From NCBI GenBank assembly GCA_964016885.1, contig OZ024742.1:161262001-161326000 (forward strand): a DNA stretch of 64,000 bases, in the 5' to 3' direction. Source of the stretch: Eledone cirrhosa. Taxonomy: Eukaryota. This document shows positions 7,674 through 59,840 of the stretch, piece after piece. Positions within the stretch are counted from its first letter, which is position 1. The number at the start of each line of letters is the position of its first letter. A model generated the notes under the pieces. It worked only from the letters and a program-made list of their open reading frames with translations, had not been told where the DNA came from and did not search any database. The translations under genes and the position numbers were made by a program.

Positions 7674-7815
7674 TCATCATTCTAGGCAGGTAGATAAGTA
7701 GGTAGGTAAATGGATACAACATTCATAGCATTGTAAATGACTACATATACACTTAGTCTCTTGTCAGGTAAAAAAAAAAAAAAAGAAATCCATGTAAATG
7801 AAGTGTCATAAGTTC

Positions 7816-8118
7816 TCAAACATCAGGGCTTGAAGTCGAAACTGCTGGTGTTTCAGATGTTGAGGCGTTATGCTCCTCGTCACCCACCTCATTTGATGAA
7901 CTCTTTAATGTTGAGCTACTCTGAAGGTAGTTCTGCCATTTGTTCAAACGTTCTAACTTTTCTTGTTCCGTTTCAGCTACATCAAACTTCTGTTTCCCAT
8001 CCCAGGTCTCGGCAACAATCTTTTTCTGTGCGAACCATCGCCCATTCAAAGCTACAATGCATTCATCAGCTTCCTCAGCTTCTCTGAAAGTCACTGATAT
8101 CACACCATTTTGGTTCCG
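7816..8118 (-). CDS. HTATSF1: Last coding exon of HIV Tat-specific factor 1 (Tat-SF1/Cus2-like U2 snRNP factor): end of RRM2/UHM plus short C-terminal tail
   Basis: Translates RNQNGVISVTFREAEEADECIVALNGRWFAQKKIVAETWDGKQKFDVAETEQEKLERLNKWQNYL...PDV*. This matches the Tat-SF1 RRM2 end (G-RWF-x-R/K-x-I-x-A-x2-WDG ... ER-L-x2-W). Acceptor ttttttcttctAG at 8120-8119, phase 0. Confidence 0.9.
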   Translation of the reverse strand, partial: RNQNGVISVTFREAEEADECIVALNGRWFAQKKIVAETWDGKQKFDVAETEQEKLERLNKWQNYLQSSSTLKSSSNEVGDEEHNASTSETPAVSTSSPDV

Positions 8119-12777: not shown

Positions 12778-12867
12778 ATCATAGATCACAATCTTACGAA
12801 CTTCTCCAAATTTTGAACATTCACTTTGTACATCATCTTTCAGTTCTCGCAGCAAACCAGGATCTTC
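12778..12867 (-). CDS. HTATSF1: Penultimate coding exon (90 nt) of the HTATSF1-like gene
   Basis: ttttaatcttAG|GAA GAT CCT...ATC TAT GAT|GTaagta encodes EDPGLLRELKDDVQSECSKFGEVRKIVIYD (UHM 'ECSKFG' motif). Splices in frame to the exon starting at 8118. Confidence 0.9.
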
Positions 12868-17796: not shown

Positions 17797-20700
17797 TCTT
17801 GTATTTTCGTTTATTGTTAAATCATGCCCAAAATACGGCGATCTTATCTTAATCCTTACATTCTCGCTAACAACCCATCATCCCTCCCTCCCGCCCCCAC
17901 GCACCACCATTATTACGTGGACCAATCATAAGTCAGAGGCCCATACTATCGCTTAACTGGTTGCTTTTCGATATGATGGATGGACTACGGAATTCTGGAG
18001 AGTTGAAGAGAGAAAAATGTGGACGCTCAGCGACAATGCCAAAGATAAAGCCAAATTCACCTCGTGGACGAGAATGCAAGCACTCCTCCTTGTTTCGGCC
18101 CAGGATGGCTAATATAACCCCATCCCCCCCCGCGCCCCACCGCTCCCACCCTCCAAACGCAATCCAAAACTTCAGAGTTGGTACCATGAATGTAGGCACC
18201 TTAAAGGGTCGCTCGAACGAGGTTGTAGAAATGCTTGAACGTAAGGAGGTCGATGTTTGTTGTATTCAAGAGACCAGGTGGAGGGGAGGGTCGGCTAGAT
18301 TCATCGTGGGTAAAGAGCGATGCTATAAGCTTTTCTGGGTGGGAAATGACAATGGGTTGGGTGGGGTAGGAATCATGGTAGCAGAAAAGTGGGCAGATAA
18401 GATAATAGACGTAAATAGAGTGAACGACAGAATAATTAAAATAAGACTTGTCCACAATAAAACTACGGTGACAGTAATATCTGCGTACGCACCCCAATCC
18501 GGACAGCCCCGCGCTATAAAAGACAGATTCTACGAGACACTGATGCTCGCTACCTCCCAAATAACCGACAGTGACTATATAGTTATTGCAGGCGACCTAA
18601 ATGGTCACGTTGGACAACATTGTGACGGCTATGACGGAATCCATGGAGGCTATGGGTTCGGTACTAGAAATGAGGAAGGCTCCAGAATCCTGGAATTCTG
18701 CGACGCAAATAACTTAACTATCTGTAACACTAACTTCAAAAAACGAGACAATCACTTGATCACCTATAGGTCGGGGGAACACACAAGCCAGGTAGATTAT
18801 ATCCTTACCAGAAGACGTGACAGAGTGTCTGTTGTTAACACTAAATCCCACCCCCATGAAGAATTCACCTCCCAACATAGACTGATAATTAGCGACCTCA
18901 TAGTCAGGACGAGACGTACTAGACAGCGAAAGAGGACTATCCTCAGGAGAAAAATATGGAAGCTAAAGGACCCCATAGCCAGAAATAAATTTCAAAGCAA
19001 ATTACTTGACGCTTTCGACAGTAAGGAAGAGCAATTAGAGTCGTATAATATAGAGGAACAGTGGGAATTCCTGAGAGCAAACCTGCTGACGGCGGCAGAC
19101 GAAGTCTGTGGCTGGAGCAGGCCTGTAGGTAGGAGGAGAGTAACATGGTGGTGGAACAGTAAGGTGGAGGAGTCAATTAAGGCCAAAAAGCAGGCTTGGA
19201 AAGTATGGCGGGATGGGGGAAGTAGAGAAGACTATCAAGTGGCCAGGAGGGAAGCTAGGAGACAAGTGTACTTCGCAAGAAGGGAAGCAGAGGAAAGAAA
19301 GTTCAAGCATGTTCTACAACGTGAGGACCAAAAACGTGAGGTGTTCAGGATTGCCAGGCAATGTGTCAAGGAAAACCGTGATATTGTCGGGGAGAAGTGT
19401 GTACTTAACGATGATGGCATACTTGCCATCACCGACGCTGATAAGAAGGTAGCTTGGAAGTGTCACTACGAAAGGCTTCTAAATGAGGAGAACAAATGGG
19501 AGAAAGATAGTCTCCCCCAGATCGATCCAATAGAGGGACCAGCAGTGTTAGTTGAAGGTAGTATAATAAGTAAGGCAATCAAAGATATGAAGACGGGTAA
19601 GGCGGCTGGGCCTTCGGAAATAGTTGCTGAGATGCTGAAGGCATCTGGTTCGGTGGGACACACCATGGTCACCCGGATAGTTAACCAAGTCGTACAGAAT
19701 GGGGTTGTTCCGAAGGAATGGCGTAGCAGCATCATCGTTAACTGCTATAAGGGAAAAGGAGATGCCCTAGATAGGAGTAACTATAGAGGCATTAAATTAA
19801 TCGACCAGGTCATGAAGGTCACGGAAAAAGTAATAGCGCAACTAATCAGAGAGAGAATTGATCTAGATGAAATGCAGTTCGGGTTTGTGTCAGGCAAAAG
19901 TACCACAGACGCTCTTTTCATTGTACGACAACTACAGGAGAAGTACCTAGCTAAAAGTAAACCCCTATACTTAGCTTTTGTCGACTTGGAGAAAGCCTTC
20001 GACAGAGTCCCCCGTTCCATTATCTGGTGGTCTCTTAGAAAACTAGGTGTTGACGAATGGCTTGTGAGAGCTATACAAGCCATGTATAAAGAAACAGTCA
20101 GTAAGGTTAGAATTAACAACGAATATAGTGAAGAGTTTAGCGTAAAAGTTGGTGTCCATCAGGGCTCTGTACTTAGCCCCCTACTATTTATTATTGCCCT
20201 TCAGGCTATAACAGAGGAGTTCAAGACCGGCTGCCCATGGGAACTCCTATACGCAGATGATCTAACGCTCATAGCTGAATCAATGACCGAACTAGAGAAG
20301 AAATTCCAAACGTGGAAGCACGGCCTAGAATCAAAAGGCCTTAAAATTAACCTGGCTAAGACTAAAGTTCTAGTTTGTAGGAAAGAAAATAAGGCGGCGG
20401 TCCCATCGGGGAAATGGCCATGCTCAGTGTGTAGGAAAGGCGTAGGTAGAAACTCCATTTTATGTCCCAAATGCAAAGTATGGGTGCATAAAAGATGTAG
20501 TGGGATCACAGGTAAGCTAACTAAGAACATAGATTTTACATGTGGCCGGTGCTCTGGTGCAATAAGTAGCAGCAAGTGCCCACAAAATACTAGCTCCTTC
20601 AACTGCGCAGAGGGTTCTATAGAAATAGTGGATAGCTTCCGTTATCTGGGTGACAAAATCAGCAGTGGGGGAGGGTGCTCTGAAAGTACAGTAGCTAGAG

Positions 20701-21718
20701 TCAGAACTGGATGGAAAAAGTTCAGAGAGCTTATACCACTATTAGCCGCTAGAGGGTTCTCCCTAAAAATGAAAGGCAGGTTATACGATGCCTGCATACG
20801 AACAGCAATGCTGCATGGCAGTGAGACCTGGGCATTGTGTGCAGAGGATATACGCAGACTAGAGAGGAACGAAGCTTGCATGCTCCGCTGGATGTGCAAT
20901 AGTAATATACGTGAACGGCAAAGCATAAACGAACTAAGGAAAAAATTAGAAATAAGAGGGATCAGATGTTGTTTACTCGAGAGAAGGCTACGTTGGTACG
21001 GTCACGTGATGCGCATGAAAGACGACAGCTGTATAACAAAGTGCAGGGCAATAAAGATAGACGGTAGCCACGGAGTAGGCAGACCCAGAAAAACATGGGA
21101 CGAGCTGATAATTTCCGACCTCACACGCTTACACCTCTCCAAGACAATGTCACTGGACCGAGACCTTTGGCGGTACTCAGTAATAGAGAAGACCCGCCTT
21201 ACCTAAATACAAAGTAAAAACCTACTACAGTCAGTAGGCACCTCTATCAAAACACACCCCCGTCCCACCACCTCCACCTCCACCCCACCCACACCGCCCC
21301 TTTCAATGTAAAGTTATGTTGGCCCCACAACATCCAGGCCGAAACAAATGAGATCGTGTAGGTGTCACGACAAAAAACACACAGTCCACGCTGTAAATGT
21401 GGCCGTGTAGGCAACACGGTAAAAACCTCCCAGCCCCACACTGTAAATGTGGTTGGTGTTAGGAAGGGCATCCAGCTGTAGAAAACCCGCCAGACAGTCC
21501 ACGCTGTAATGTGGCCGTGTAGGCAACACGGTAAAAACCTCCCAGCCCCACACTGTAAATGTGGTTGGTGTTAGGAAGGGCATCCAACTGTAGAAAACCC
21601 GCCAGACAGTCCTATGCGAGCAAGACAACCACTCTTGCCTCAAGTGGGAAAACCCCCGTCCAAACCCATGCAAGCGTGGAACACGGACGCTAAACCTGAT
21701 GATGATGATGATGATGAT
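17797..21718 (+). mobile_element. Full-length RTE-clade LINE, apparently intact
   Basis: Single long ORF, 3' UTR with cctact-acagtc-agtagg hairpin, (GAT)n tail, flanked by (TA)n. The 5' boundary is approximate. Confidence 0.92.
17961..21206 (+). CDS. RTE LINE polyprotein: APE endonuclease, reverse transcriptase and internal PHD-type zinc finger
   Basis: Endonuclease motifs GTMNVGTL, CIQETRW, SAYAPQ, AGDLNGH, QVDYIL, SQHRL. RT motifs YRGIKL, QFGF, FVDLEKAFD, GVHQGSVLSP, YADD (20250-20261), FRYLG. RTE C-terminus RLRWYGHV..GRPRKTW. Likely start is ATG 17973 or ATG 18036 (MPK, conserved in copy 2). Confidence 0.93.
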   Translation: MLFDMMDGLRNSGELKREKCGRSATMPKIKPNSPRGRECKHSSLFRPRMANITPSPPAPHRSHPPNAIQNFRVGTMNVGTLKGRSNEVVEMLERKEVDVCCIQETRWRGGSARFIVGKERCYKLFWVGNDNGLGGVGIMVAEKWADKIIDVNRVNDRIIKIRLVHNKTTVTVISAYAPQSGQPRAIKDRFYETLMLATSQITDSDYIVIAGDLNGHVGQHCDGYDGIHGGYGFGTRNEEGSRILEFCDANNLTICNTNFKKRDNHLITYRSGEHTSQVDYILTRRRDRVSVVNTKSHPHEEFTSQHRLIISDLIVRTRRTRQRKRTILRRKIWKLKDPIARNKFQSKLLDAFDSKEEQLESYNIEEQWEFLRANLLTAADEVCGWSRPVGRRRVTWWWNSKVEESIKAKKQAWKVWRDGGSREDYQVARREARRQVYFARREAEERKFKHVLQREDQKREVFRIARQCVKENRDIVGEKCVLNDDGILAITDADKKVAWKCHYERLLNEENKWEKDSLPQIDPIEGPAVLVEGSIISKAIKDMKTGKAAGPSEIVAEMLKASGSVGHTMVTRIVNQVVQNGVVPKEWRSSIIVNCYKGKGDALDRSNYRGIKLIDQVMKVTEKVIAQLIRERIDLDEMQFGFVSGKSTTDALFIVRQLQEKYLAKSKPLYLAFVDLEKAFDRVPRSIIWWSLRKLGVDEWLVRAIQAMYKETVSKVRINNEYSEEFSVKVGVHQGSVLSPLLFIIALQAITEEFKTGCPWELLYADDLTLIAESMTELEKKFQTWKHGLESKGLKINLAKTKVLVCRKENKAAVPSGKWPCSVCRKGVGRNSILCPKCKVWVHKRCSGITGKLTKNIDFTCGRCSGAISSSKCPQNTSSFNCAEGSIEIVDSFRYLGDKISSGGGCSESTVARVRTGWKKFRELIPLLAARGFSLKMKGRLYDACIRTAMLHGSETWALCAEDIRRLERNEACMLRWMCNSNIRERQSINELRKKLEIRGIRCCLLERRLRWYGHVMRMKDDSCITKCRAIKIDGSHGVGRPRKTWDELIISDLTRLHLSKTMSLDRDLWRYSVIEKTRLT

Positions 21719-23569: not shown

Positions 23570-24460
23570 ATAATAATAATAATGATAATAATGAAATTAT
23601 TGTGTACAGTGCTCAGGTGCACTACAACTCATCAAAGGTACATGTGTAGTAGTACATAGAATAATGTGCAAATGTCAGGAAAATGAACAGTGTACGAGTC
23701 ATGAAATACATGTGTGCGTGTGTATGGAGGGGCAACATCAGGTGTAGTGTTGGTGAATCTCAGGAAGCATGGAGGTTTTAAAGGATGCAATGTCTTGACA
23801 GCTAACAACTGATGCAGGTAGTTTATTCCATGCTTCAGCAACTCTGAACATGAAAAAATGTTTCCAAAAGTCATAGGAGCTGTGCTGTTTTCTGACTTTG
23901 TAGGCATGCCCACGTGTGTTAGACACATTGAGATCAAAAAGATGCTCAGGGTTGTTGTTGGCACCAATTTTGTGGGTGTTTACCAAGTCAGTTGCCAGAT
24001 GTCGGAGCTTCAATGTATCCATGCTCAGGGAAGCAAGGCGTTCTGAGTATGGTAGATCTCCGATGGAGGGTATTCACTTGGTTGCATGTTTCTGGAGTAT
24101 TCACTTGGTTGCATTCAATCGCTGCTAACAGTGATGCCCAGGTCACATTCACAAGAAGACTTCTTGATATTAGTGTTGTGGAGGGAGTATGTGGACGCTG
24201 GGTTTTTACTCCTTAATGCATGAAGGTACACTTGTCCACAGCCAACTTGAGATGCCATCCATTGTTGCATTGTGTTCAGGTCTGATTGCAGGAAAGATCT
24301 ATAGTGTTCAAGATCTGTCCTTTTTATCTCAAGGTACAGCTTGATGTCATCTGCATATTTCAGTACTGTGGAATTCTTTAAGTTGGCATCTATGTCATTA
24401 ATATATGCCACAAACAAAAGGGGACCAAGAACAGATCCCTGTGGTACACCAGACATTCTG
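23570..24460 (-). mobile_element. CR1-clade LINE 3' fragment (pseudogenised RT)
   Basis: SGVPQGSVLGPLLFVAYINDI, KYADDIKLY, TRGHAYKV..HFFMFRVAEAWNKLP; (ATT)n tail. Confidence 0.88.
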
Positions 24461-24671
24461 TATACATTATGACATTATGTATACATATATCATAACGTCC
24501 ATTTTCCATGCTAGCATGGGTTAGACAGGCTGTCTCGTATATATCATCATCATCATCATCATCACCGTTTTACATTCATTCTTCCACACTAGCATGGATT
24601 AGACGGGTTGTCCTGTTGTGGGCAATGCCAGGTCAGGTGACCATGTCTTGCTCATACAGAACTGATTTTGG

Positions 24672-30523: not shown

Positions 30524-32630
30524 CAGTGGCGTAGCTAGGGTGTGGCAAGCAGGGCACATGCCACAGGCGCCATATTTAGTTGGGCGTAATTTCGACCTAG
30601 ATCAATTTACATCCATGTCGTTTTTATCATTTTAAAAAATATAAGCCAAAAATGAAGCAAGTGATTTCTTGATAGCCGACATCCACGCCATGTCTAGTGC
30701 ACTAGACAGAGCAGATGTCTGATTTGACCTCACAAAACCGCCCCCCCCCCTACACACACACACACACTGACTGAAGGGACGTAGTTTTGGACGTGCAACT
30801 GGTGGACACGCAGGCGCTATTTTTAGCAATGCATTGCAATGACCAATACAAGATAATTATAATTATGAAGCTGGTTTACAAAACAGAGTAGTTTGTCTTT
30901 TACAACTGGTACATAAGACGTATAGAAAAGGTATCATAATCCAAATGGCCAGATAGGATCGGATAGCTTCTATTAGGAATTCAATTTGACTCCAGTTTAG
31001 ATGGTTCAATGTTTTCTTGTATAATACAGTTTGTCAGAATTTACTAAATCGTATCCAAAAAGCAAGATACTATGGTCTGCTGATTGTTTCGACCCCCTGA
31101 CCACGCGCACCGAGAACAACTATCAAAAGTTGTGCGATATGTCGATGTTGATTTCAATATGAAGATGGTCATTGAGAGCATATCTTTTCTTGGATTCATT
31201 TAAGTAATCAAAAAAGATGCCGCAAACCTTGTTGAAACAATCGTGAAAGAGCTAGAAAAAGATGACCTACCACTGCAGAACTGTCGATCGCAGTGCTACG
31301 ACAATGCTGCCATAATGGCTGGGCACCGTAGTGAGGTTCAGCAGAGAATGAGAGAGAAGAAGAATTTGATTCAATTCATTAATTGTGATAACCATTCACT
31401 TAATCTGGCTGGTCTTCATGCAGCCAAAAACGATTCTGCTATGATGAACTTTTTCAGTTGCATTGACTCGCTATACAACTTTTTTTCTCGTTCAACATGA
31501 CGATGGGAAACCCTTAAAGAAGTTGCTCCAGTGGTTGTTAAATATCCTTCCAACACGCGGTGGAGTGCTAGATGTACCGCAGTCAGACCGGTGGCAAATT
31601 ATTTGACGCTGATTGTTCAAGTTCTCAAAAAAATTAGTGATGCGAGAGTAGAAGTGATGCCAGTAATCTCCATAATCGGATACTGAGTTATGAATTCCTG
31701 AACTTGATTAGATTCTGGAACACGATTCTCTCACGAATTGACCGGGTTCAAAAGAGACTTCAAGATCTAAGAATGAATTTTCACGATGCTGCAACTGATA
31801 TAGGAGCCCTTCAACTTTATTTTAAAGAAGAAGGAACATCCTTAGTCCACAAGTCTCTTGAAATGGGCTTCAACCTCTGCCAGAAATGGAATGTCGATTT
31901 TCCGAGGAGGCGAGGAAGACGACAAACCAATACCAAAATTACTGAGGACGTCGGGGTGGCTGCCAGAAAAGAGAGAGCAATGCAAAGTTCACTCAATTGT
32001 CTTCAAACAGAAATGGAAGAACAGTTTATTCGACTTAGGGAAAACGACTCAAGTTTTGGCTTTCTTCTTGATGTCAACTATGTTTTATTTGGCTGCTCCT
32101 GATAACCTTGTCCTTAAACAAAGGTGCAACAGTCTTGCGGAACTATACAACTCCGACATCGACGGAGAGCAATTGTATGAGGAAATCTTGGACTGCCGAT
32201 CTTTGCTGTCTACTAGGACAGCTGACACAATTTTAAAGCCAGAGGCGCTCCTCCAATTCATCATACAATATGGCGATGAATGTGTTTTTCCCAATTTGTG
32301 AATCAGCATTCAAATAATGTTGACGATTTCTATTTCAATTGCCAGTTACGAGAGGTCGTTCAGCAAGCTGAAGCTAATACATTCGTATTTGTGAACCTCA
32401 ATGGGCCAACAACGGCTGACTAACCTTGCGCTTTTGAGTGTAGAAATCGAAGAGTTTGAACAAACTGATTTCGAGGAAATTATCAACCAGTTTACCTCAT
32501 TAAAAGCCCGAAAAATCAAGTTGTAACTGTTTTTTGTTTTTTTATTATAAATTCTACCGCAATTTCATATTTGTGGATCTTGACTTTTTGATGCTTGCCC
32601 TGGGCGGCGTTTACCCTAGCCACGCCACTG
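30524..32630 (+). mobile_element. hAT DNA transposon (Tip100/ZMYM1-like transposase), internally deleted and pseudogenised
   Basis: TIRs CAGTGGCGTAGCTAGGG / CCCTAGCCACGCCACTG. Remnants CRSQCYDNAAIMAG, CDNHSLNL, TRWSAR and dimerisation domain VFPNL*..SIASYERSFSKLKLI..SMGQQRL, with stops and frameshifts. Confidence 0.9.
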
Positions 32631-41729: not shown

Positions 41730-44700
41730 TCCCACCCGCCCCCACACACCACCATTCTTAATACGTGGACCAATCATAAGCCAGAGCCCCCCCCCGCATC
41801 ACCATTATTATTATAAGCCAGAGCCCCCCCCCCCACCACCACCACGCATCACCATTATTATTATTACGCGGACCAATCATAAGCCAGAGGCCTATACTAT
41901 CGCTTGCCCGGTTGCCTTCGATATATGATGGATGGATGGATGGATGGACGGACTGCGGAATCCTGGAGAGTGGAAGGGAGGGAAAAATCTGGACGCTCAG
42001 AGCGAAAATGCCAAAGTTAAAGTCAAATTCACCTCGTGGACGAGAATGCGAGCACTCCTCTTTGTTTCGTCCGCGGATGGCTAACATAACCCCATCTCCC
42101 CCCGCCCCCACCCTCCAAACGCAATCCAAAACTTCAGAGTTGGTACCATAAATGTAGGCACCCTAAAGGGTCGCGCTAACGAGGTTGTAGAAATGCTTGA
42201 ACGTAAGGAGGTCGATGTTTGTTGTATTCAAGAGACCAGGTGGAGGGGTGGGTCTGCTAGATTCATTGAGGGTAAAAAACGATGTTATAAGCTTTTCTGG
42301 GTGGGAAACGACGATGGGCTGGGCGGAGTAGGAATCATGGTAGCAGAAAAGTGGGCAGATAAGATAATAGATGTAAATAGAGTGAACGACAGAATAATTA
42401 AAATACGACTTGTCCTCAATAAAACTACGGTGACAGTAATATCTGCGTACGCACCCCAATCCGGACTGCCCGGCACTATAAAAGACAGATTCTATGAGAC
42501 ACTGTTGCTAACTACCTCCCAAATATCTGACAGTGACTATATAATTATTGCAGGCGACCTAAATGGTCACGTTGGACAACATTGTGACGGCTACGACGAA
42601 ATCCATGGAGGCTATGGGTTTGGTACTAGAAATGAGGAAGGCTCCAGAATCCTGGAATTCTGTGATGCAAATAACCTAACTATCTGTAACACTAACTTCA
42701 AAAAAACGTGACAATCACCTGATCACCTATAGATCCGGGGAACACACAAGCCAGGTAGATTATATCCTTACCAGAAGACGTGACAGAGTGTCTGTTGTAA
42801 ACACTAAATCCCTCCCCCATGAAGTATGCACCTCCCAACATAGACTGATAATTAGCGACCTCATAGTCAGGACGAGACGTACTCGACAGCAGAAGAGGAC
42901 TATCCTCAGGAGAAAAATATGGAAGCTAAAGGACCCCACAGCCAGAAATAAATTTCAAAGCATATTACTTGATGCTTTCGACAGTAAGGAAGAACATTTA
43001 GAGTCGGACAATATAGAGGGACAGTGGGAATTTCTGAAAGCAAACCTGCTGTTGGCGACAGACAAAGTCTGTGGCTGGAGCAGGCCTGTAGGCAGGAGGA
43101 GAGTAACATGGTGGTGGAATAGTAAGGTGGAGGGGTCAATTAAGGCCAAAAAGCAGGCTTGGAAAGTATGGTGGGATGGGGGAAGTAGAGTAGACTATCA
43201 AGTGGCCAGGAGGGAAGCTAGGAGAGAAGTGTACTTAGCAAGAAGGGAAGCTGAGGAAAGAAAGTTCAAGCATGTTCTACAACGCGATGACCAAAAACGT
43301 GAGGTGTTCAGGATTGCTAGGCAATGTGTCAAGGAAAACCGTGATATTGTCGGGGAGAAGTGTGTACTTAACGATGATGGCATACTTGCCATCACCGACA
43401 CTGATAAGAAGGTAGCTTGGAAGTGTCACTATGAAAGGCTACTAAATGAGGAGAATAAATGGGAGAAAGACAGTCTCCCCCATATCGACCCAATAGAGGG
43501 ACCAGCAGTGTTAGTCGAGGGGAGTATAATAAGTAAGGCAATCAAGGATATGAAGACGGGTAAGGCGGCTGGGCCTTCGGAAATAGTTGCTGAGATGCTG
43601 AAGGCATCTGGCACGGTGGGACACACCATGGTCACCCGCATAGTTAACCAAGTCGTACAGAATGGGGTTGTTCCGAAGGACTGGCATAGCAGCATCATCG
43701 TTAACTGTTATAAGGGTAAAGGAGACGCCCTAGATAGGAGTAACTATAGAGGCATTAAATTAATCGACCAGGTCATGAAGGTCACGGAAAAAGTAATAGC
43801 GCAACTAATCAGAGAGAGAATTGACCTAGATGAAATGCAGTTCGAGTTTGTGTCAGGCAAAAGTACCACAGACGCTCTTTTCATAGTACGACAACTACAG
43901 GAGAAGTACCTAGCTAAAGGTAAACCCCTCTACTTAGCTTTTGTCGACTTGGAGAAAGCCTTCGACAGAGTCCCCCGCTCCATTATCTGGTGGGCTCTTA
44001 GAAAACTAGGCGTTGACGAATGGCTTGTGAGGGCTATACAAGCCATGTATAAAGAAACAGTCAGCAAGGTTAGAATTAACAACAAATATAGTGAAGAGTT
44101 TAGCATAAAAGTTGGCGTCCATCAGGGCTCTGTTCTCAGCCCCCTACTATTTATTATTGCCCTTCAGGCTATAACAGAGGAGTTCAAGACAGGTTGCCCA
44201 TGGGAACTCCTATACGCAGACGACCTGACACTCATAGCGGAATCAATGGCCGAGCTAGAGAAGAAATTCCAAACATGGAAGCACGGCCTAGAGTCAAAAG
44301 GACTTAAAATTAACCTGGCTAAGACCAAAGTTCTAGTTTGTAGGAAAGAAAACAAGGCGGCAGTCCCTTCTGGGAAATGGTCGTGCTCGGTGTGTAGGAA
44401 AGGCGTAGGTAGAAACTCCATTTTATGTCCTAAATGCAAAGTATGGGTGCATAAAAGATGTAGTGGGATCACAGGTAAGCTAACTAAGATCATAGATTTT
44501 ACATGTGGCCAGTGTTCTGGTGCAATAAGTAGCAGCAAGTGCCCACAAAATACTAGCTCTTTCAATTGCGCAGAGGGTTCTATAGAAATAGTGGACAGCT
44601 TCCGTTACCTGGGCGATAAAATCAGCAGTGGGGGGGGGTGCTCTGAAAGTACTGTAGCTAGAGTCAGAACTGGTTGGAAAAAGTTCAGAGAGCTTATACC

Positions 44701-45214
44701 ACTATTAGCTGCTAAAGGGTTCTCCCTAAAAATGAAAGGCAGGTTGTACGATGCCTGCATACGAACAGCAATGTTGCATGGCAGTGAGACCTGGGCATTG
44801 TGTGCAGAGGATATATGCAGACTAGAGAGGAACGAAGCTTGCATGCTCCGCTGGATGTGTAACAGTAATATACGTGAACGGCAAAGCATAAACGAACTAA
44901 GGAAAAAATTAGAGATAAGAGGGATCAGATGTTGTTTACTCGAGAGAAGGCTACGTTGGTATGGACACGTGATGCGCATGAAAGTCGATAGCTGTATAAC
45001 AAAGTGCAGGGCAATAAAGATAGACGGTAGTCACGGAATAGGCAGACCTAGAAAAACCTGGGACGAGCTGATAAACTCCGACATCACACACTTACACCTC
45101 TCCAAGACAATGTCACTGGACCGAGACCTTTGGCGGTACTCAGTAACAGAGAAGACCCGCCTTACCTAAATATATAGTAAAACCTACTCCAGCCAGTAGG
45201 CATCTCTAACAAAA
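41730..45214 (+). pseudogene. Second near full-length RTE LINE with two frameshifts and no 3' tail
   Basis: Collinear with 17880-21250. Frameshifts in a C-run (~42105) and an A-run (~42700). ORF pieces 41912-42151, 42193-42711 and 42788-45169 keep YADD and the PHD finger (44384-44515). Confidence 0.92.
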
Positions 45215-45994: not shown

Positions 45995-46700
45995 TCATCA
46001 TCATCATCATCATCATCATCATTGTTTTTATGTCCATTTTTCCATGCTTCCATGGGTTGACTGAATCCATCCCAGCACAGCATCTCTCCACTCATCATGC
46101 TCCTTCATCATCTCCTCTGTGAGTCTCCGTGATTTGAGGTCAGCCCTCACAATCTCAACCCAGGTCTTTCTTGGTCTACCTCTACTGTGGCTTCCTTCCA
46201 CTTCTTCACCCACCAATCGTCGTCCATACCAACACAGTCTTCTCTCCTACCCACCACCTCAGATTCATCTTAAACCTAAGTTCTACTTCAACTCGTCCAA
46301 GCTCTGCTTTGTTCTCACATTTACATTGCACATCCAATGAAGCATAGTTGCTTCATTTCTCTTCAGTCTGTGCATGTTCTCTGCAGTCACAGCCCATGTT
46401 TCACTACTATGCAGCATCACACTTCACACACAGGTGTGATACAGTCATCCTTTTATATGTAGGGAGAAACCTTTTGTGGTCAACAGTGGTAATAGCTCTC
46501 TAAACTTTTTCCATCCTATCCTTATTCTAGATATTATGCTCTCAGAGCATTCTCTACTAGTGCTAATCAAGTCACCAAGATAGCAGAAGCTATCAACCAC
46601 TTCTATGGGTCCTTCTTGTGACTGGAATAGGTTTACATCACTGGTGCTCTTCCCTTCAGTTACCTTTGTGCATCTTCTACATACAAATGTAGAGTGATAA
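45995..46700 (-). mobile_element. Older RTE subfamily 3' fragment
   Basis: FVCRRC..IEVVDSFCYLG..IGWKKFRELLPLL and RGRPRKTW; (CAT)n tail. Confidence 0.88.
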
Positions 46701-46724
46701 TTTTTTTTTTTTTTATTTGAATAT

Positions 46725-46955
46725 GGCAAAGCCGGCCATTAATCGCGCGTAAACAGGAAACTGACTGGCCTGCCTGCTGATAGGCAAATCTGGCTGATCA
46801 GTGGATCTGCTAATATGCAGATCTGGCTGGTCAGCCAGTCTGCTAATATGCAAATCAGGTTGATCAGTCACTGTATATTTTAGAAAATATCATATATTTT
46901 CACTAGCTCTGACAGTTGGCAGGTGAACAGTGAACTGCACTGATGAAGGGTGATA
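46725..46955 (+). mobile_element. Octamer-repeat/hammerhead element, copy truncated within the ribozyme
   Basis: Inverted homologue of 51590-51772. gtgaacagtgaactgca-CTGATGA-agggtgata is then fused to an RTE-type tail. Confidence 0.7.
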
Positions 46956-51319: not shown

Positions 51320-51397
<78 letters not shown>

Positions 51398-51557
51398 GAA
51401 GAAATTTTCGCTCTACATGGCTGAATACAATAAATATAATCTGACTTATTTGAATATTAATAATAACATTCGATTCGTTTGCAATTATGCAAACAAGCCT
51501 CAATTTTATAGCCATGTCAGTAGAATGAACCCTTCATTCTTGCTCTTGTGTTGGCAT

Positions 51558-51623
51558 GTGAACAGAACTGCAGACACTAATGTTTCTGGGTATCACCCTT
51601 CATCAGTACAGCTCACTGTTCAC
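51558..51623 (-). ncRNA. Type I hammerhead ribozyme with GUC cleavage site
   Basis: gtgaaca-gt-gagctgta-CTGATGA-a gggt gat accc a-GAAA-cattagtg-TC|tgcagttc-tgttcac. 15-bp stem I with a 2-nt bulge; predicted cut between 51573 and 51572. Confidence 0.8.
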
Positions 51624-51949
51624 TTGCTAAACTGTCAGAGCTACTGAAAATATATGCTATTTTCAAAAATACAGTGACTGATTGGCCTGATTTGCATATT
51701 AGCAGACTGGCTGATCAGTCAGATCTGCATATGAGCAGATCCACTGATCAGCCAGATTTGCATATCAGCATATATAAATATACACGGGTGTGTATGATTG
51801 TGTATAGAAGATTATATTAATAAAAGGAATTCCAACTTTGTCTGATTTACTTGTTTTATTTACAATCCTTTAAAATTATAATGATATTATAATGAAATAG
51901 TATGGTAGAATATTAAATGTTAAGTGTTAATTGAACAAGTACTTTCATG

Positions 51950-53575
51950 CTTTCGCAATGTTCAGGTTCATATTCTGTGGTGACAGTCAAGTTTGCAATT
52001 CTCAATGTCCCAGCACAGCTGCTGCATGTGAAGCCTACATTCTTAATTAAGCTTCCTGAGATCCCGCTACATCTCTTGTGTACCCATTGTTTGCATTTGG
52101 GGCAGAGAATGGAGTTCCTACCTACACCTTTCCTACATACTGAGCAAGGCTATTTCCCTGGGGGATCTGGATTCTATTTTCTCGTCTACTTACAAGGACC
52201 TTAGTCTTTGTCATGTTGACTTTGAGACTCTTTCTTTCTAGTCCCTGCTTCCAAGTTTAGAATTTCTTCTCTAATTCTACCATAGATTCAGCTATAAGTG
52301 CGAGGTAATCAGCATACAGGAGTTCCCATGGGCATCCGGTCTTAAACTCCTCCGTTATTGCCTGCAGGACTATGATGAACAGGAGAGGGCTAAGAACAGA
52401 GCCCTGGTGGACCCCAACCTGTACGCTAAATTCCTCGCTATACTCATTGCTAATCCTAACTTTGCTGACTGCTCCCCTATACATGGCTTGTACCGCTTTC
52501 ACAAGCCATTCATCTACTCCTAGTTTTCTAAGAGCCCACCAGATTACAGCACGTGGAACTCTGTCAAAGGCTTTCTCAAGGTCGACAAATGCCAGGTAGA
52601 GTGGCTTACTTTTAGCTAGGTACTTTTCCTGTAACTGCCTCACAAGGAAGAGGGCATCAGTGGTGCCTCTTCCTGGTACAAACCCAAATTGCATCTCGTC
52701 TAGTTTCACCCGGTCCCTAATCAACTGTGCTATAACTCTTTCTGTTACTTTCATGACCTGGTCCATCAGCTTTATACCTCTATAGCTTCCTCTATCTAGT
52801 GCATCACCTTTACCTTTGTAGCAGTTGACAATGATGCTACTGCACCAATCTTTTGGTATGACACCTAGTATTACCTGGTTAACAATACGTGTGATTATAG
52901 TGTGACCTACAGACCTAGATGCCTTCAGCATCTCGGCAGCTATACCCGATGGACCGGTTGCCTTCTCCATCTTCATATCTTTGATTGCCTTACTTACTAT
53001 GTTGCTGCTGACTTTTACTGCTGGCCTCTCTATAGGGTCTACTTGGGGTAGGGTCTCTTCTTCCCATGCATTCTCCTCCTCATTTAGTAATCTATCATAA
53101 TGACTCTTCCATGCATCTTTCTTCTCAGCAGTTGTGAGGGCAAGCTCACCTTTATCATTCCGGATACACTTCTCTCCAATGACATCACAACTCTCTCTGA
53201 CACACTGCCTCGCAATCTTGAACACCTCCTGTTTCTGGTCCTCACGTTGCAAAACATGCTTGAATTTTCTATCCTCTGCTTCCCTCCTAGCTAAGTATAC
53301 TTGTCGCCTAGCTTCCCTCTTGGTCTCTATGTAATGTACCCTGCTCCCCCCATTCTTCCATTCTTTCCATGCCTGTCTCTTGGCCTTAACTGCCTCATCT
53401 ACCTTATTGTTCCACCACCAAGTCACTCACCTCCTGCTTGAGGTCTTACTCCAGCCACAGACCTCATCCGTTGCCTCTAGTAAGTTATTTTTTAGGAACT
53501 CCCAGTTCTCTTCTACATTGAATGTCTCTATCTGTTCTTCTTTACTGTCGTAAGCGTTGAGTAAAATATCTTTAA
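51950..53575 (-). mobile_element. RTE LINE internal fragment (related subfamily)
   Basis: ORF 52257-53426 (RT; YADY instead of YADD), then a frameshift into KTKVLV..CSVC..CPKCKQWVHKRC..CSSC. Confidence 0.92.
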
Positions 53576-54660: not shown

Positions 54661-55045
54661 GATGAAAGAATGGTATTTAACTAATGTATTGGTATGCGAT
54701 GGGGCCCACCCACAGCCCCGGCAGACAGAATGGAGGTGTTTCCCCGGAGGACGGCAAGGGAGACGCGCTGGAAAAGCCACTCCAACTCGTGGGGCTCACA
54801 CCTGCGGCTGGCCAGCTCAGCGTGAGTAAGGAGGTAGCCCTGGGGCCGAGGACACCAGAAGTTTCCACTGCCGGGGAACAACCGCAAACCTGTTGGAGAG
54901 CGACCGGTATTTGAGGAGTTTGGCCCCCTCAGCCCAACGTGCAGCAGAACCTGGGTCAGTCGCAGACTGCACCAGGCTGCGGCTGCAGAAAGTGTCGGTG
55001 CAAGTGGCATCCCAGACGAGGGGTTTGCCACCACGGAACGGGAAG
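54661..55045 (-). mobile_element. CRE-like non-LTR retrotransposon 3' end (restriction-like endonuclease region)
   Basis: GKPLVWDATCTDT..AEGAKLLKYRSL..AVETSGVLGP..EPHELEWLFQRVSLAVLRGNTSILSAG. 3' terminus identical to that at 13141. Confidence 0.85.
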
Positions 55046-56161
55046 CCTTTGTCAGGGCATTCTTCTAGGAGAAGGCAACTCAGGAAACTGGGATAACTGA
55101 CTTAAAACCTGCAGCTCAGTAGTTACTGACGATGTTGATCTTTTCTTCTTTTGGGGTTATAGCTAGTCGCTCAGAGAGTGGGATTGGTTCAGTACACAGT
55201 CTTTCCTCACTTTTTAAAAAATCTTCACGCACAGGCATTGCAAAACAGAATTAATTAATAATTATTAATAATGTTATATCATGCAATGACCATGCTCGAT
55301 AACGAGGGGGCAGCCATCATATTTATTTAAATAGGTTATGTAAGAACTTAACTTTAAGTTATGTTCCAAACAATAGCTTAAACCTTTAGCATTTTCATTA
55401 TTCTATAAATACTATTGTATTTTCATGGTAAAGGCTTTATCTCACATAATATCGAATCTATGAGATTTTGATACTATTCATTTTGAGAACAATACCTTAA
55501 CATCAGTATGTGTGGCCAGTTACGGCTGGTTTGAACAGAAAGATATGAGAAAAGGATAAAGGGTTAATAATGAGAAAGTTAGTTATATTATCAAACACCT
55601 CCAAATTTCAAAACTATTTGGAAGTCATAGGCAGTGTTAAGCCTTTTGATACCAACCAGATCAAAACCACCTCTTGTTTTCTGAACTCATTTTAAGTGGT
55701 TTCTAAATGAAAATCTTCCAATATAATTTCATATAAAAACCTTTTTATTATGTTACAAATACATCTTAATGAAATAATGATTTTATTAAGTCAACAAAAT
55801 CCTTATCAACTAATTCAAAAACTGGATTTTATTAGAAATAAGGTAATGAAAGGGTTCATGGTTATCATCTGTTGTAAAATTATATTTGTTTAATTTTCTT
55901 TCTTCTTTTTTTTTATTTTTGTTTTGTTTTTATTTGTTTGTTTTTTCTGATTTAGGGGGAGGACGGTTAAATCATTGAAAAGCTCTCAGTTACCACATCT
56001 TGAAAATGGTGATAGATATTTGATAAACATTTGTCAACCCATCAGTCATCATTTACAGGTGATGTTGTTATTATTTTCTGACAACTCTGTAATATAATAA
56101 TAGTCAACAGCCCAAATTAATTAGATCAACAGAAGTCATTGTCCTCTCCACAATATATATA

Positions 56162-57139: not shown

Positions 57140-57702
57140 CATATTTCTAATGAAGGACACTGCCTATGTTTTTCAAATAAGTTTTAAAATAATCAAACAT
57201 TTGGAAGGATTTAGTAATATAAACTTCTCATTATTTATCTGCTGTTTAGAACATAACAAAAGTCTTTACATAAAATTATGATGGAATTATGATAAATATA
57301 AACACTTTAACCCTTTCATTACCATATTTCTGATAAAAGACACTGCCTATATTATCCAAATAATTTTGAAAATAATCAAGAGTTTGGAAAATTTAGCAAT
57401 ATAATTAACTTTCTCATTATTTATCTGCTGTTTGGAACATATTTACATAAAATTATGATGAAAGGTTTTTAAATAAATATAAACACATTAACCCTTTCAT
57501 TAGCATATTTCTCATGAAAGACACAGCCTATGTTTTTCAAATAACAGCTATCTTTCTCATCATTTATCTAGTGTTTGGAAAATAACAAAAATCCTTACAT
57601 AAAATTATGATCAAAAGATAGAAAAACAAAAACATGTTAAAATAAACAGTTTTGTATCATAGAACTAGGGATGGTTTCAGATGATTGATATCAAAAGGGT
57701 TA
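57140..57702 (-). repeat. Three tandem ~180-bp units derived from a TTAA-type MITE
   Basis: Repeated ttaaccctttcattaccatatttct..gacactgcctat..tttggaacata..acataaaattatga; ends in tatcaaaagggttaa. Confidence 0.65.
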
Positions 57703-58308: not shown

Positions 58309-58562
58309 CATCTGGCATAATCAGAAAAAAGGCTGTCAATGACATTTTGTAGGGACTTCATCTGGCATAATCAGAAAAAGAGCTGTGTCAATGACATTTT
58401 GTAGGGCCTTCATCTGGCATAATCAGAAAAAGGCTGTGCCCATGACATTTTGTAGGGCCTTCATCTGGCATAATCAGAAAAAGAGCTGTGCCAATGACAT
58501 TTTGTAGGGCCTCATCTGGCATAATCAGAAAAAGAGCTGTGCCAATGACATTTTGTAGGACC
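58309..58562. repeat. Minisatellite, about 5 x 51-52 bp
   Basis: Unit catctggcataatcagaaaaagagctgtgccaatgacattttgtagggcctt. Confidence 0.92.
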
Positions 58563-59374
58563 TCCAAAACTGTAAGAACAATCCTTTGGACAGGTTTACA
58601 ACAGAATGAACTCTGCAAAGAGAGCCAGAGAGTGGTGCTGAACAATGCAACAGATTCACTGCCAATAACTCAGAATAGGCAGAGTTGGTAGAGAGCAGAA
58701 TAAAATTCCATTGTACTATTTGTTAGGGCTCTTGACATTCTGAATTCAAGTCCCACAAAGGTCAACTTTGCTTTTCATCCTTCTGGGGAAGGGGGGTCAA
58801 TAAAATAAAGTACAAGTACTGGAGTCAAGGGATGCAAGTATAGCCAAGTGGTTAAAAAGATCCTTGCAATCATGAGATCCAGGTTCAATCCTAATGCACG
58901 ACATCTTGAGCTAAGTCTAATTTAAAACAGATAAAAGCCCTTATCTCCTGATGGAGTCATAGGCATAATGTACTGACACGCAGAGTGTCTTTGGCTTTTT
59001 AAACCTGGCTGAGCCCAACCCTATCCTGCATTGGACTAGTATTTTATTTATGGTCCTTGAAAGGATGAAAAGCAAAGTTGACCTCAGTAGGTCTTGAACT
59101 ATGCAGTGAGTTAGAACAAATACCAAGGTATTTTTAATCCAACATTCCAATAGCTCTGCCAACTGGCCACACTCCAATGACTCTGTCAACTGGTCACACT
59201 CCAATGACTCTGTTAATTGGCTATCTTAGTTGTCTTTTACTGTACATTGAACTTGACTGAAACTATGTCAATAAAATTCATATTGATACCAATTATAGAG
59301 CCTGCAGTGATAGTTGTTTATGTCCCCCATACATATGTTCAGCAGCTTAACAGTCCAACAAACATTAGCAGATA

Positions 59375-59840
59375 AATACAGGCATATGGTGTACCTATTC
59401 TAAACCAGATATACACAGAGATATGGTGTACCTATTCTAAACCAGATATACACAGGCATATGGTGTACCTATTCTAAACCAGATATACACAGGGATATGG
59501 TGTACCTATTCTAAACCAGATATACACAGGGATATGGTGTACCTATTCTAAACCAGATATATACAGGGATATTGGATTGGCAGTATCGGTAGAGGATCGG
59601 ATGCCATGCTTTCCAGCATAGTTACGTCCTTTAACGATCTGAGTTCAAATCCCGCCGAGCTTGACTTTGCCTTTCATCCTTACGGGGTCGATAAAATAAA
59701 GTACCAGTAATGCACTGGGTAATTGCTGGCCTTGTGCCAAAAGTAGAAACAATTATGTACCTATTCTAAACCAGATATACACAGGCATATACCTATTGTA
59801 AACCAGATATACACAGGGATATGGTGTACCTATTCTAAGC
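59375..59840. repeat. 36-38-bp minisatellite interrupted by SINE-A (59573-59756)
   Basis: Unit atatggtgtacctattctaaaccagatatacacagg(g) on both sides of the SINE. Confidence 0.92.

What the first reader, a model, noticed from the sequence alone, without database searches (positions are those of the whole stretch)
51398..51772. Canonical GUC hammerhead downstream of octamer-motif repeats, on the sense strand of the putative HTATSF1 intron
Seen: an intact core with a 15-bp stem I, GGGU/ACCC stem II (A-A at its base) and GUC site. On the same strand it is preceded by ~30-bp repeats containing TGCTAATATGCAAAT (ATGCAAAT at about 51690 and 51756). A second copy lies inverted at 46725-46955, and its stem I differences (gagctgta vs gaactgca) are G-U to Watson-Crick swaps that keep the pairing. 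Established: ATGCAAAT is the POU/Oct octamer used in snRNA distal elements. Inference: a non-coding mobile unit pairing a promoter/enhancer-like array with a self-cleaving RNA. If the region is intronic, it could cut nascent pre-mRNA.
Basis: partly seen in the sequence, partly recalled or inferred. Interest (0 to 1): 0.8.

Follow-up and report, generated by a model that had tools for sequence, protein, structure and literature searches.

The report
Octopus retrozyme with snRNA-type promoter
This is one of more than a thousand scattered copies of a short non-coding octopus repeat that carries a hammerhead-ribozyme sequence right behind a close match to the animal's own snRNA gene promoter, so it likely transcribes and cuts its own RNA and likely borrows Penelope-type retrotransposon enzymes to jump, while this lone intronic copy is predicted to cut its host pre-mRNA poorly.

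Summary
The hammerhead is real: core at 51606-51573 (minus strand), predicted cut 51573/51572, on the sense strand of the 55-kb intron 5 of HTATSF1. It is not a host invention. It is a 5'-truncated copy (0.84 unit) of a 440-bp non-coding repeat with at least 1,104 genomic copies. Its insertions show Penelope-like-element (PLE) hallmarks: fixed 3' ends on (AT)n, a ~35-nt optional tail, inverted 5' pieces and partial tandems. It is best filed as a non-LTR retrozyme, a known kind. The second copy at 46.7 kb is cut inside helix II and has no cleavage site. The octamers are not a distal enhancer. Beside them lies a top-scoring match to this genome's own U1/U2/U4/U5 proximal element (0 of 346,226 background sites score as high), which places a predicted start at the foot of stem I. 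The octamer block itself recurs at -76/-78 of the genome's U6 genes and in sister families (24,619 motif hits). This echoes newt satellite 2. The monomer is predicted to misfold; a dimer is energetically competitive. No cleavage, start site or circle was shown, and no autonomous parent was found.

The parts
51398..51770 (-). Copy A of the 440-bp repeat family ('family A'): 5'-truncated, 0.84 unit, one hammerhead
   Evidence: BLAST to a natural tandem unit from L027: unit 276-440 at 51770-51607 (94%) and unit 1-205 at 51606-51402 (95%)
51677..51770 (-). 33-bp x 2.8 repeat; each unit is an octamer-like plus a TCAGT-like half, quasi-palindromic
   Evidence: TRF; motif positions
51756..51763 (-). 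Upstream exact octamer ATGCAAAT (about -138 from the predicted start)
   Evidence: exact in 43 of 51 copies scored
51690..51697 (-). Proximal exact octamer (about -72 from the predicted start), in a TATGCWAATNAG block like that at -76/-78 of host U6 genes and in sister families B and C
   Evidence: exact in 45 of 56 copies scored
51666..51683 (-). Match to the host U1/U2/U4/U5 proximal sequence element (TCAGT starts at 51681)
   Evidence: 17.3 bits, 0 of 346,226 background sites as high; 17.5 bits and 0 with U2 left out of training; model validated on U4
51732..51749 (-). Second, upstream PSE-like block without the downstream TATA-like part
   Evidence: 13.5 bits, 3 of 346,226 background sites as high; fails the longer model
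51649..51657 (-). TATA-like stretch at the place where host snRNA promoters are TA-rich (about -30)
51624..51626 (-). Predicted transcription start (55-57 nt after TCAGT), at the 5' foot of stem I; inferred, not observed
   Evidence: host offsets -55 to -58
51558..51623 (-). Type I hammerhead: stem I 51623-51607 with 51572-51558; core 51606-51600; helix II 51598-51588 flanked by A.A; GAAA 51586-51583; helix III 51583-51574 (self-complementary 10-mer); C17 51573
51398..51429 (-). Optional 3' 'tail' beyond the commoner 3' end at unit position about 177
   Evidence: 3' ends: 40 of 78 loci at unit 170-187, 20 of 78 at 200-217
51336..51397 (.). (TA)31 microsatellite, the likely insertion target
   Evidence: 51 of 78 family loci end on (AT)n
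51775..52005 (-). 3' end (pLTR) of a different, autonomous PLE family, abutting copy A; carries its own hammerhead (core starts 51965) with G8 changed to C
   Evidence: 93.6% to L107, whose ORF has RVT_1 and GIY-YIG matches
46687..46954 (+). Copy B: antisense to HTATSF1, keeps the promoter block and the 5' half of the ribozyme, truncated in loop II, no cleavage site
   Evidence: its loop/junction 25-mer is unique in the genome
12868..64000 (-). HTATSF1 intron 5 (continues to window coordinate 68294, outside the window)
   Evidence: tblastn of P0001/P0002 on the window plus neighbouring stretches
12778..12867 (-). HTATSF1 exon 6
   Evidence: spliced to exon 7 in contig 25 of run X4
7797..8118 (-). 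HTATSF1 last coding exon (part covered)

Best explanation
The feature is a truncated copy of a 440-bp non-coding, hammerhead-bearing repeat present in over a thousand places in this octopod genome, which likely spreads as a non-autonomous passenger (non-LTR retrozyme) of Penelope-like retrotransposons and is likely transcribed from its own snRNA-type promoter. Inferred cycle: in the minority of loci holding more than one unit, SNAPc-type factors would bind the octamer/TCAGT/TATA-like block and start transcription at the foot of stem I. The polymerase is most likely Pol II, because the unit holds four runs of four or more T. Read-through would give RNA with two hammerheads, which would pair through their self-complementary helix III and cut out a unit-length, strongly self-paired RNA that contains the promoter and could be circularised. 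A PLE reverse transcriptase/GIY-YIG protein would prime at a nicked (AT)n tract, start copying at a fixed point 143 or about 180 nt past the cut site, and stop or invert at random. Shown: anatomy, copy number, end geometry, promoter similarity, intron position. Inferred: transcription start, polymerase, cleavage, circles, helper. Copy A has one ribozyme and lacks unit positions 206-275, so it is likely a dead-end insertion that could still fire its promoter but is predicted to cleave HTATSF1 pre-mRNA only slowly.
For: 1,104 exact copies of the 34-nt core, 556 plus and 548 minus, reversed-pattern control 0; best 40 of 1,612 candidates 95-97% identical. The unit is 440 bp, circularly permuted, 39% GC, with the longest stop-free sense frame 78 aa. 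Of 78 loci scored (79 examined): 60 end in two narrow 3' windows, 51 abut (AT)n, 39 carry an inverted piece and 6 hold two sense cores. These are the PLE features listed in 10.1101/2021.04.23.441226. Autonomous RT + GIY-YIG PLEs in this genome show the same geometry, with a hammerhead 110-205 nt before ends on (AT)n and an optional tail of about 35-45 nt (10,596 GIY-YIG candidates). A U6atac retrocopy is fused to an inverted family-A piece and ends on a microsatellite (L288). The circular unit folds at -167.5 kcal/mol, z = -11.6, with 0 of 60 shuffles as good. Promoter: TCAGT at -55 to -58 in all 69 U1/U2/U5 loci; the model picks -58/-56 in 17 of 20 held-out U4 loci; copy A scores above all 346,226 background sites; the U4 block matches 24-26 of 36 ungapped in 55 of 88 family cores, against 1 of 345,910 background sites at 24 or more. 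The octamer is kept at -88, -100 and -93 from the core in families B, C and A, which otherwise barely align. Dimer -52.8 versus two misfolded monomers -53.0 and two active monomers -40.6 kcal/mol. Family sequence is present in contigs of run X4 (29 of 30 bins), a run that looks like RNA because it holds spliced HTATSF1.
Against: No autonomous PLE with a pLTR homologous to family A was found in 30 GIY-YIG loci plus 20 longer stretches. PLE ends abut family A in 7 of 79 loci but belong to four different families, which fits a shared target rather than a partner. Only 6 of 78 loci hold two sense cores and no long array of family A was seen. The A.A base of helix II departs from the conserved G10.1-C11.1 pair (PMC4209133), and 8 of 9 Xenopus retrozyme dimers did not cleave in vitro (10.64898/2026.07.22.740005), so activity is not assured. 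The TCAGT match is strong only in family A. In the -86..-70 window it ranks 1, 5, 10, 2 and 1 for B1, B2, C, D and E, with weak scores, and 2 for an unrelated T-rich family F. The promoter models rest on 12 non-redundant AT-rich promoters and four independent U6/U6atac loci. Window copy A is the 2-nt-shorter variant and was not scored separately against the U4 block. Sampled loci are best hits or exact-core hits, so core conservation counts are circular. RNA evidence is one run, contigs only, with no strand, start, level or circle, and could be read-through of introns or UTRs.
Confidence: 0.72

Rival explanations
1. Same element, but the promoter is U6-type (Pol III). It makes a ~220-nt RNA from stem I to the first T-run, like a SINE with an external promoter, and the longer templates needed for copying the promoter come from host read-through transcripts.
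For: The TATGCWAATNAG block plus TATA at -30 is the signature of host U6 and U6atac genes. The first T4+ run lies 220 nt after the predicted start, at the second class of 3' ends (20 of 78). U6/U6atac retrocopies also sit in (AT)n.
Against: The late first T-run is not significant (P = 0.16 for A, 0.14-0.34 for B, C, D). Octamer-to-TATA spacing is 42-45 nt in the repeats versus 46-47 in U6. Family A has the TCAGT block of Pol II genes, which U6 lacks. Autonomous PLE ends are T-rich too.
Confidence: 0.2
2. The copies are solo or deleted pseudo-LTRs of an autonomous Penelope-like element not yet found. The promoter and ribozyme are simply that element's pLTR parts, and the 440-bp unit never travels on its own.
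For: End geometry is the same as in autonomous PLEs here. PMC4209133 reports that most PLE hammerheads occur as dispersed single motifs. The search for a parent covered only 50 stretches out of 10,596 GIY-YIG candidates.
Against: Copies read through from the tail straight into the promoter region as a closed 440-bp permutation (L007, L010, L014, L026, L027), and no ORF was seen joined to any. The five ORF-bearing PLE families examined lack the octamer/TCAGT block. Sister families B and C form pure tandem arrays, about 30 units in one locus.
Confidence: 0.15
3. One reading: this sense-strand intronic copy cleaves nascent HTATSF1 pre-mRNA or acts as a co-opted Oct enhancer, and so regulates the gene.
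For: It lies on the sense strand of intron 5 with an intact core. Conserved intronic hammerheads exist in amniotes (PMC6155905). Nearest-neighbour folding ignores tertiary contacts that can rescue monomers (same paper).
Against: It is a young multi-copy repeat, 95-97% identical to other copies. The monomer has P(helix III) = 6e-5. The neighbouring PLE ribozyme is mutated and has a different helix III. Copy B could later pair with copy A over 182 nt at 91%. A spliced HTATSF1 contig of 2,119 nt exists in run X4, although that animal need not carry this insertion.
Confidence: 0.06
4. The octamer and TCAGT matches are by-products of quasi-palindromic repeats selected for RNA hairpins, and the repeat has no promoter of its own.
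For: The 33-bp repeats form hairpins in the circular fold. The sequences are AT-rich and the motifs are short.
Against: Families B and C keep the octamer without the repeats. Three separate motifs each put the start at -20 to -14 from the core. The U4 match was not used in training.
Confidence: 0.12

Closest known systems
Metazoan non-LTR retrozymes (coral, mussel, axolotl; PMC7229834, passages seen; bioRxiv 10.64898/2026.07.22.740005, abstract to discussion seen)
   Same: Non-coding 150-450-bp unit, GC under 50%, one type I hammerhead per unit, strongly self-paired circular fold, co-occurring autonomous PLEs, dimer-dependent cleavage expected.
   Different: Family A is mostly dispersed sub-unit copies with PLE-style ends and 5' inversions, not arrays. 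It has A.A at the base of helix II. It has an identifiable snRNA-type promoter. 'Octopus' and 'cephalopod' do not occur in the main text of PMC7229834, and the 2026 preprint sampled vertebrates, three insects and one anthozoan.
Newt satellite 2 (Coats et al. 1994, PMID 7984420; not held, only its title and a citing sentence in PMC2220036 seen; its octamer + PSE content is recalled)
   Same: A hammerhead repeat of a few hundred bp with an internal snRNA-type promoter; dimeric cleavage (PMC6155905, passage).
   Different: Different phylum and no sequence comparison made. Here the octamer block matches a proximal element of host U6 genes and abuts the Pol II-type PSE, and the promoter is inferred from sequence, not assayed.
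pLTR hammerheads of Penelope-like elements (PMC4209133, results and discussion read; 10.1101/2021.04.23.441226, passages)
   Same: Short palindromic helix III, partial tandems, inverted 5' pieces, 30-40-bp tail, microsatellite targets.
   Different: No RT/GIY-YIG ORF, a much longer helix I (15 pairs versus 4-6), no G10.1-C11.1, and no homologous autonomous element found.
Domesticated intronic hammerheads of amniotes, such as RECK (PMC6155905, passage)
   Same: Type I hammerhead in an intron of a protein-coding gene.
   Different: Those are few-copy and conserved across species. This is one of more than 1,100 near-identical recent insertions.
TRIMp3 elements Cassandra, Helenus and Ajax (PMC10886601, passages)
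   Same: Non-autonomous retroelements that carry a small-RNA-gene promoter.
   Different: Those are LTR elements with gene-internal tRNA or 5S promoters. This element carries a gene-external snRNA-type promoter, kept by circular permutation, and has a ribozyme.

Membership tests
Type I hammerhead ribozyme | Core C3-U4-G5-A6-N7-G8-A9, G12-A13-A14, A15.1-U16.1 and an NUH triplet | tested here: met
   All present in copy A
Type I hammerhead ribozyme | Helices I, II and III around the core, open at helix I | tested here: met
   15, 4 and 3 pairs; constrained fold -20.3 kcal/mol, but not the minimum (-26.5)
Type I hammerhead ribozyme | Conserved G10.1-C11.1 pair closing helix II next to G12 | tested here: not met
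   A.A in 84 of 85 in-register copies (partly circular sample); U.U in sister families B and E and in one autonomous PLE family
Type I hammerhead ribozyme | Match to a curated Rfam hammerhead model | tested here: not met
   0 matches at gathering score in the window; the E-value mode was not run
Type I hammerhead ribozyme | Self-cleavage after H17 | not testable with these tools
   Needs an in vitro assay or raw end-mapping reads
Non-LTR retrozyme | Non-coding unit of 150-450 bp, GC below 50%, one type I hammerhead per unit | tested here: met
   440 bp, 39.3% GC, longest sense frame 78 aa stop-to-stop, antisense 127 aa
Non-LTR retrozyme | Tandem copies with two or more complete hammerheads | tested here: inconclusive
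   6 of 78 family loci have two sense cores; this locus has one, so it fails the 'active' criterion of the 2026 preprint; sister families form long arrays
Non-LTR retrozyme | Highly self-paired circular fold | tested here: met
   68% paired, z = -11.6, 0 of 60 shuffles; prediction only
Non-LTR retrozyme | Expression as unit-length linear and circular RNA | not testable with these tools
   Only contig presence in one RNA-like run
Non-LTR retrozyme | No PBS or PPT; long target-site duplication when present | not tested
   PBS and PPT were not searched; a duplication cannot be told inside (AT)n
Penelope-like element (autonomous) | ORF with PLE reverse transcriptase and GIY-YIG endonuclease | tested here: not met
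   No such ORF in the unit; present in other families of the genome
Penelope-like element (mobilised by) | 5' truncation, partial tandems, inverted 5' copy, 30-40-bp tail, microsatellite bias | tested here: met
   39 of 78 inverted, 51 of 78 on (AT)n, two 3' end classes about 35 nt apart
Penelope-like element (mobilised by) | Sequence homology to the pLTR of an autonomous PLE | tested here: inconclusive
   None in 30 + 20 PLE stretches; only a small part of 10,596 candidates was seen
snRNA-type promoter | PSE 40-70 bp upstream of the start (PMC9652321, passage) | tested here: met
   Host-derived matrix: top score among 346,226 sites, validated on held-out U1, U2, U5 and on U4; the start itself is inferred from the match
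snRNA-type promoter | Distal element with octamer at -250 to -170 | tested here: not met
   Element octamers fall at about -72 and -138; host Pol II snRNA genes lack a distal octamer
snRNA-type promoter | SNAPc-dependent initiation; polymerase identity; 3' box | not testable with these tools
   Needs reporter, 5' mapping and inhibitor tests; a 3' box was not searched
Domesticated intronic hammerhead (RECK type) | Single- or few-copy and conserved at an orthologous intron | tested here: not met
   At least 1,104 near-identical copies; orthologous introns of other species were not available

The most novel reading that the evidence does not exclude
Octopus retrozymes have captured the host's gene-external snRNA promoter (a U6-type octamer block fused in register to the U1/U2/U4/U5 PSE) and keep it by circular permutation. 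A whole clan of more than 25,000 ribozyme-bearing, PLE-mobilised units therefore scatters SNAPc-driven start sites through introns and intergenic DNA. Together with newt satellite 2, this would make 'snRNA promoter + hammerhead + Penelope machinery' a recurring design for animal retrozymes, and explain how they are transcribed in many tissues.
Probability: 0.4. Interest if true: 0.72.

Novelty: new variant of a known kind. Interest (0 to 1): 0.5.

Why it matters
How animal retrozymes are transcribed and moved is open: the 2026 preprint infers a PLE link from co-occurrence and Xenopus homology and says the mechanism remains to be elucidated. This family shows PLE insertion signatures on a non-coding unit directly. 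It also offers a specific, mutable promoter that matches the host's own snRNA genes, with a predicted start to within three bases. That makes both questions testable with a reporter, 5' mapping and a cleavage assay. As a by-product it defines candidate cephalopod Pol II and U6 snRNA promoter elements, which are useful for guide-RNA expression in cephalopods. The single intronic copy is probably of little consequence to HTATSF1.

Tried and rejected
Rfam scan of the window at gathering score: nothing. Sequencing-run search: no RNA holder listed; one listed run proved RNA-like when laid, and contig depth was not used to rank parts. Search for an autonomous parent: BLAST of the unit against 30 GIY-YIG loci and 20 longer stretches gave only separate insertions in shared (AT)n tracts (L075/L095, L112); the sequence 3' of L020 was not an ORF continuation. 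Enrichment of one PLE family next to family A: none. A subfamily with copy B's longer loop II: rejected, it has a single genomic match. Compensatory double changes in stem I within family A: none seen, all common variants are one-sided and pair-keeping. T-run avoidance as a Pol III sign: not significant. Distal octamer in host Pol II snRNA genes: absent. Twelve further U6 hits and 11 further U6atac hits had no promoter block and look like retrocopies, so they were left out of the promoter comparison; of the 20 best U6 loci, 8 lack the block. Intron orientation bias could not be tested without gene annotation. Earlier findings of this scan: three look-ups, nothing returned. Literature searches for an octopus report and for an snRNA promoter in retrozymes or PLEs returned none beyond the newt citation. 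Repbase, subscription journals and the preprint's supplements were not visible and may already list this family.

Full report
Setting. The window is G000:C3:161262001-161326000 of a 3.0-Gb genome. A frame at 8118-7819 (minus) matches HIV Tat-specific factor 1 in the PDB, and its nearest full-length homologues are labelled Octopus bimaculoides and Argonauta hians, so the animal is an octopod. tblastn of these proteins on the window plus 110 kb of neighbours places seven exons, all on the minus strand, at 85971-85798, 84095-83877, 83428-83225, 74675-74505, 68393-68295, 12867-12778 and 8118-7834.

The observation. The hammerhead core starts at 51606, C17 of GUC is 51573, and exact octamers lie at 51763 and 51697, within a 33-bp x 2.8 repeat. 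Stem I has 8 + 7 pairs around a 2-nt bulge, helix II four pairs with A opposite A at its base, and helix III three pairs. It is not canonical. PMC4209133 (results and discussion read) names G10.1-C11.1 as highly conserved, and no Rfam family reached its threshold in the window. The second copy (46687-46954, plus) breaks off in loop II and has no cleavage site or 3' arm; its junction is unique in the genome.

It is a young repeat family. The 34-nt core occurs 1,104 times exactly (556 plus, 548 minus; reversed control 0). A DNA search gave 1,612 candidates, and the 40 scored were 95-97% identical apart from the copy itself. A natural tandem in L027 defines a 440-bp unit, and copy A covers unit 276-440 and 1-205. 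The unit is 39% GC with no long frame. I examined 79 loci (30 best hits of copy A, 19 exact-core loci on contig C1, 30 best hits of copy B) and could score 78. 3' ends fall at unit 170-187 in 40, at 200-217 in 20 and elsewhere in 18; 51 abut (AT)n; 39 carry an inverted piece; 6 hold two sense cores. The sample is biased to well-preserved copies and includes one duplicated pair.

These are Penelope-like signatures. 10.1101/2021.04.23.441226 (passages) lists 5' truncation, partial tandems, an inverted 5' copy, a 30-40-bp tail and microsatellite bias for PLEs. The genome is rich in them (10,596 GIY-YIG candidates, 150 scored). Families with RT and GIY-YIG in one frame carry a hammerhead 110-205 nt before ends on (AT)n, with the same optional tail. 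I call them Neptune-type from a cysteine-rich linker between RT and endonuclease; this is a reading of the translation, not a tree. One such pLTR end directly precedes copy A at 52005-51775, with its own, mutated, ribozyme. No autonomous element homologous to family A was found in 50 PLE stretches, and the PLE ends next to family A (7 of 79 loci) belong to four families. The helper is thus inferred, not identified. Because insertions end 143 or about 180 nt past the cut site and can exceed one unit (679 nt in L027), the template cannot be a cut-to-cut linear monomer primed at its end. A circle or a longer precursor is implied (inference).

The ribozyme is predicted to need a partner. For the 72-nt RNA from the predicted start, the minimum fold (-26.5 kcal/mol) pairs CUGAUG with the helix III strand. 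The active fold is -20.3 and helix III has probability 6e-5. The helix III strand is self-complementary over 10 nt (-8.8), and a double hammerhead of two copies (-52.8) matches two misfolded monomers (-53.0) and beats two active monomers (-40.6). This is the dimer logic described for PLE and newt hammerheads. The model ignores tertiary contacts, which rescue some monomers. Across 85 in-register copies the common stem I variants all keep pairing (pair 6 G.U/A-U 58/23, pair 13 G-C/G.U 45/28, pair 14 U-A/U.G 56/16), but none is a double change. The unit as a circle folds at z = -11.6, as reported for retrozyme circles (PMC7229834, passages).

The octamers belong to a proximal snRNA-type promoter. 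I fetched this genome's own snRNA genes. All 69 U1, U2 and U5 loci examined have a TCAGT block at -55 to -58. A matrix from 12 non-redundant promoters recovered each held-out class and picked -58/-56 in 17 of 20 U4 loci. Copy A has this block at 51681 with 17.3 bits, above all 346,226 background sites, and still so with U2 removed from training. A longer model leaves 7 of 345,610 sites as high. The U4 block, never used in training, matches 24-26 of 36 letters ungapped in 55 of 88 family cores, against 1 of 345,910 background sites at 24 and none at 25. Counting 55-57 nt on gives a start at 51626-51624, the foot of stem I. Exact octamers are nearly absent upstream of Pol II snRNA genes (U1 2 of 30, U2 0 of 15, U5 0 of 20 within 500 nt; U4 0 of 20 within 400 nt). 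In contrast, ATGCAAAT or ATGCTAAT lies at -76 to -78 in 12 of 20 U6 loci from three places, and a one-mismatch form at -77 of the best U6atac gene. So in this animal the octamer is a proximal U6-type element, and family A joins it to the Pol II-type block and a TATA-like stretch; all three put the start 14-20 nt before the core. PMC9652321 (passages) gives the general PSE and DSE positions and notes that polymerase choice differs between lineages. I favour Pol II for the mobile RNA because the unit has four T4+ runs.

Sister families support the octamer. Scanning fetched loci showed several other hammerhead families. Families B and C keep the octamer at -88 and -100 from the core (A: -93), while BLAST finds only that 23-nt block between A and B. 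Their shared 17-mer has 24,619 exact hits (control 0), including an array of about 30 units of 466 bp. Against this, the TCAGT match is weak in B and C, moderate in D and E (which lack the octamer), and at chance level in the ORF-bearing PLE families.

Expression. No holder was on record as RNA. Run X4 holds a 2,119-nt contig that joins HTATSF1 exons 6 and 7, so I treat it as RNA; X1-X3 cover the intron like DNA. X4 has 97 contigs on the family unit, over 29 of 30 bins. This shows presence only, from one study, and may be read-through.

Host effect. Copy A could in principle cut intron 5, but it has one ribozyme, predicted to be misfolded, and its neighbours cannot complement it. Copy B, transcribed 4.5 kb later in antisense, could pair with it over 182 nt at 91%. 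Co-option is not indicated.

Comparison and verdict. It works like, and on most testable features is, a non-LTR retrozyme (PMC7229834; 10.64898/2026.07.22.740005, abstract to discussion read, supplements not seen). An snRNA-type promoter in a hammerhead repeat is known from newt satellite 2, of which I saw only the title and a citing sentence (PMC2220036); that it has an octamer and a PSE is recalled. Searches for an octopus report or for this promoter type in other retrozymes or PLEs found none; Repbase and subscription papers were not visible. Verdict: a new variant of a known kind. The hammerhead in an intron is ordinary repeat content. The host-matched snRNA-type promoter and the PLE-style ends are the part worth following. 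Interest 0.5.

Noticed in passing
window 51775-52005 (-): 3' pLTR end of an autonomous RT + GIY-YIG PLE family (L107, L108, L113) abuts the finding; its hammerhead has U.U at the base of helix II and G8 changed to C in this copy. Nested insertion in (AT)n or a template switch.
   Followed up: partly
G000:C1:5738441-5751969; L114, L130-L159: Sister hammerhead families B (about 480-490 bp) and C (466 bp) with the octamer block; 24,619 motif hits; arrays of up to about 30 units.
   Followed up: partly
L056:3537-3859, L057, L063, L103, L110: Further hammerhead families (D, 322-bp tandem; E; F; G; one at L063). D and E have a TCAGT-like block at -77 from the core without an octamer.
   Followed up: partly
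L288:1257-1625 (G000:C19:7531494): U6atac retrocopy fused head-to-head to an inverted family-A piece and ending on (AC)n/(AT)n; several other U6 and U6atac retrocopies sit in (AT)n (L286, L293, L298, L299), and L295 has an inverted 5' duplicate. Suggests PLE machinery copies small RNAs.
   Followed up: partly
L115-L129, L160-L213, L244-L284: Candidate octopod snRNA promoter elements: TCAGT block at -55/-58 in U1, U2, U4, U5; TATG(C/G)WAAT(T/G)AG at -76/-78 plus TATA at -30 in U6 and U6atac. The genes lie in tandem clusters.
   Followed up: yes
L098, L102 (PLE family ending ...PRLNTSP); L104 (ending ...RPTLNKV): Autonomous PLE hammerheads with variant cores: U3-A8 in both, and GCAA in place of GAAA in the first.
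   Followed up: no
window 46687-46954 (+) and 51592-51770 (-): The two inverted copies could form a 182-nt, 91% duplex in HTATSF1 pre-mRNA, a possible A-to-I editing substrate (inference).
   Followed up: partly
window 17871-21206 (+), 42085-45169 (+), 52257-53426 (-): Endonuclease + reverse transcriptase LINE copies, one with an unbroken 1,111-aa frame; RTE-like by recall, not tested.
   Followed up: no
window 31204-32301 (+): Broken frames that read like a DNA transposase (hAT-like by recall); not tested.
   Followed up: no
window 13161-13901 (-), 54681-55101 (-), 23738-24474 (-): Fragments of other reverse-transcriptase elements; not classified.
   Followed up: no
window 58309-58563, 59369-59572, 57140-57544, 16532-16925: Minisatellite-like tandem repeats of 51, 37, 181 and 212 bp.
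   Followed up: no
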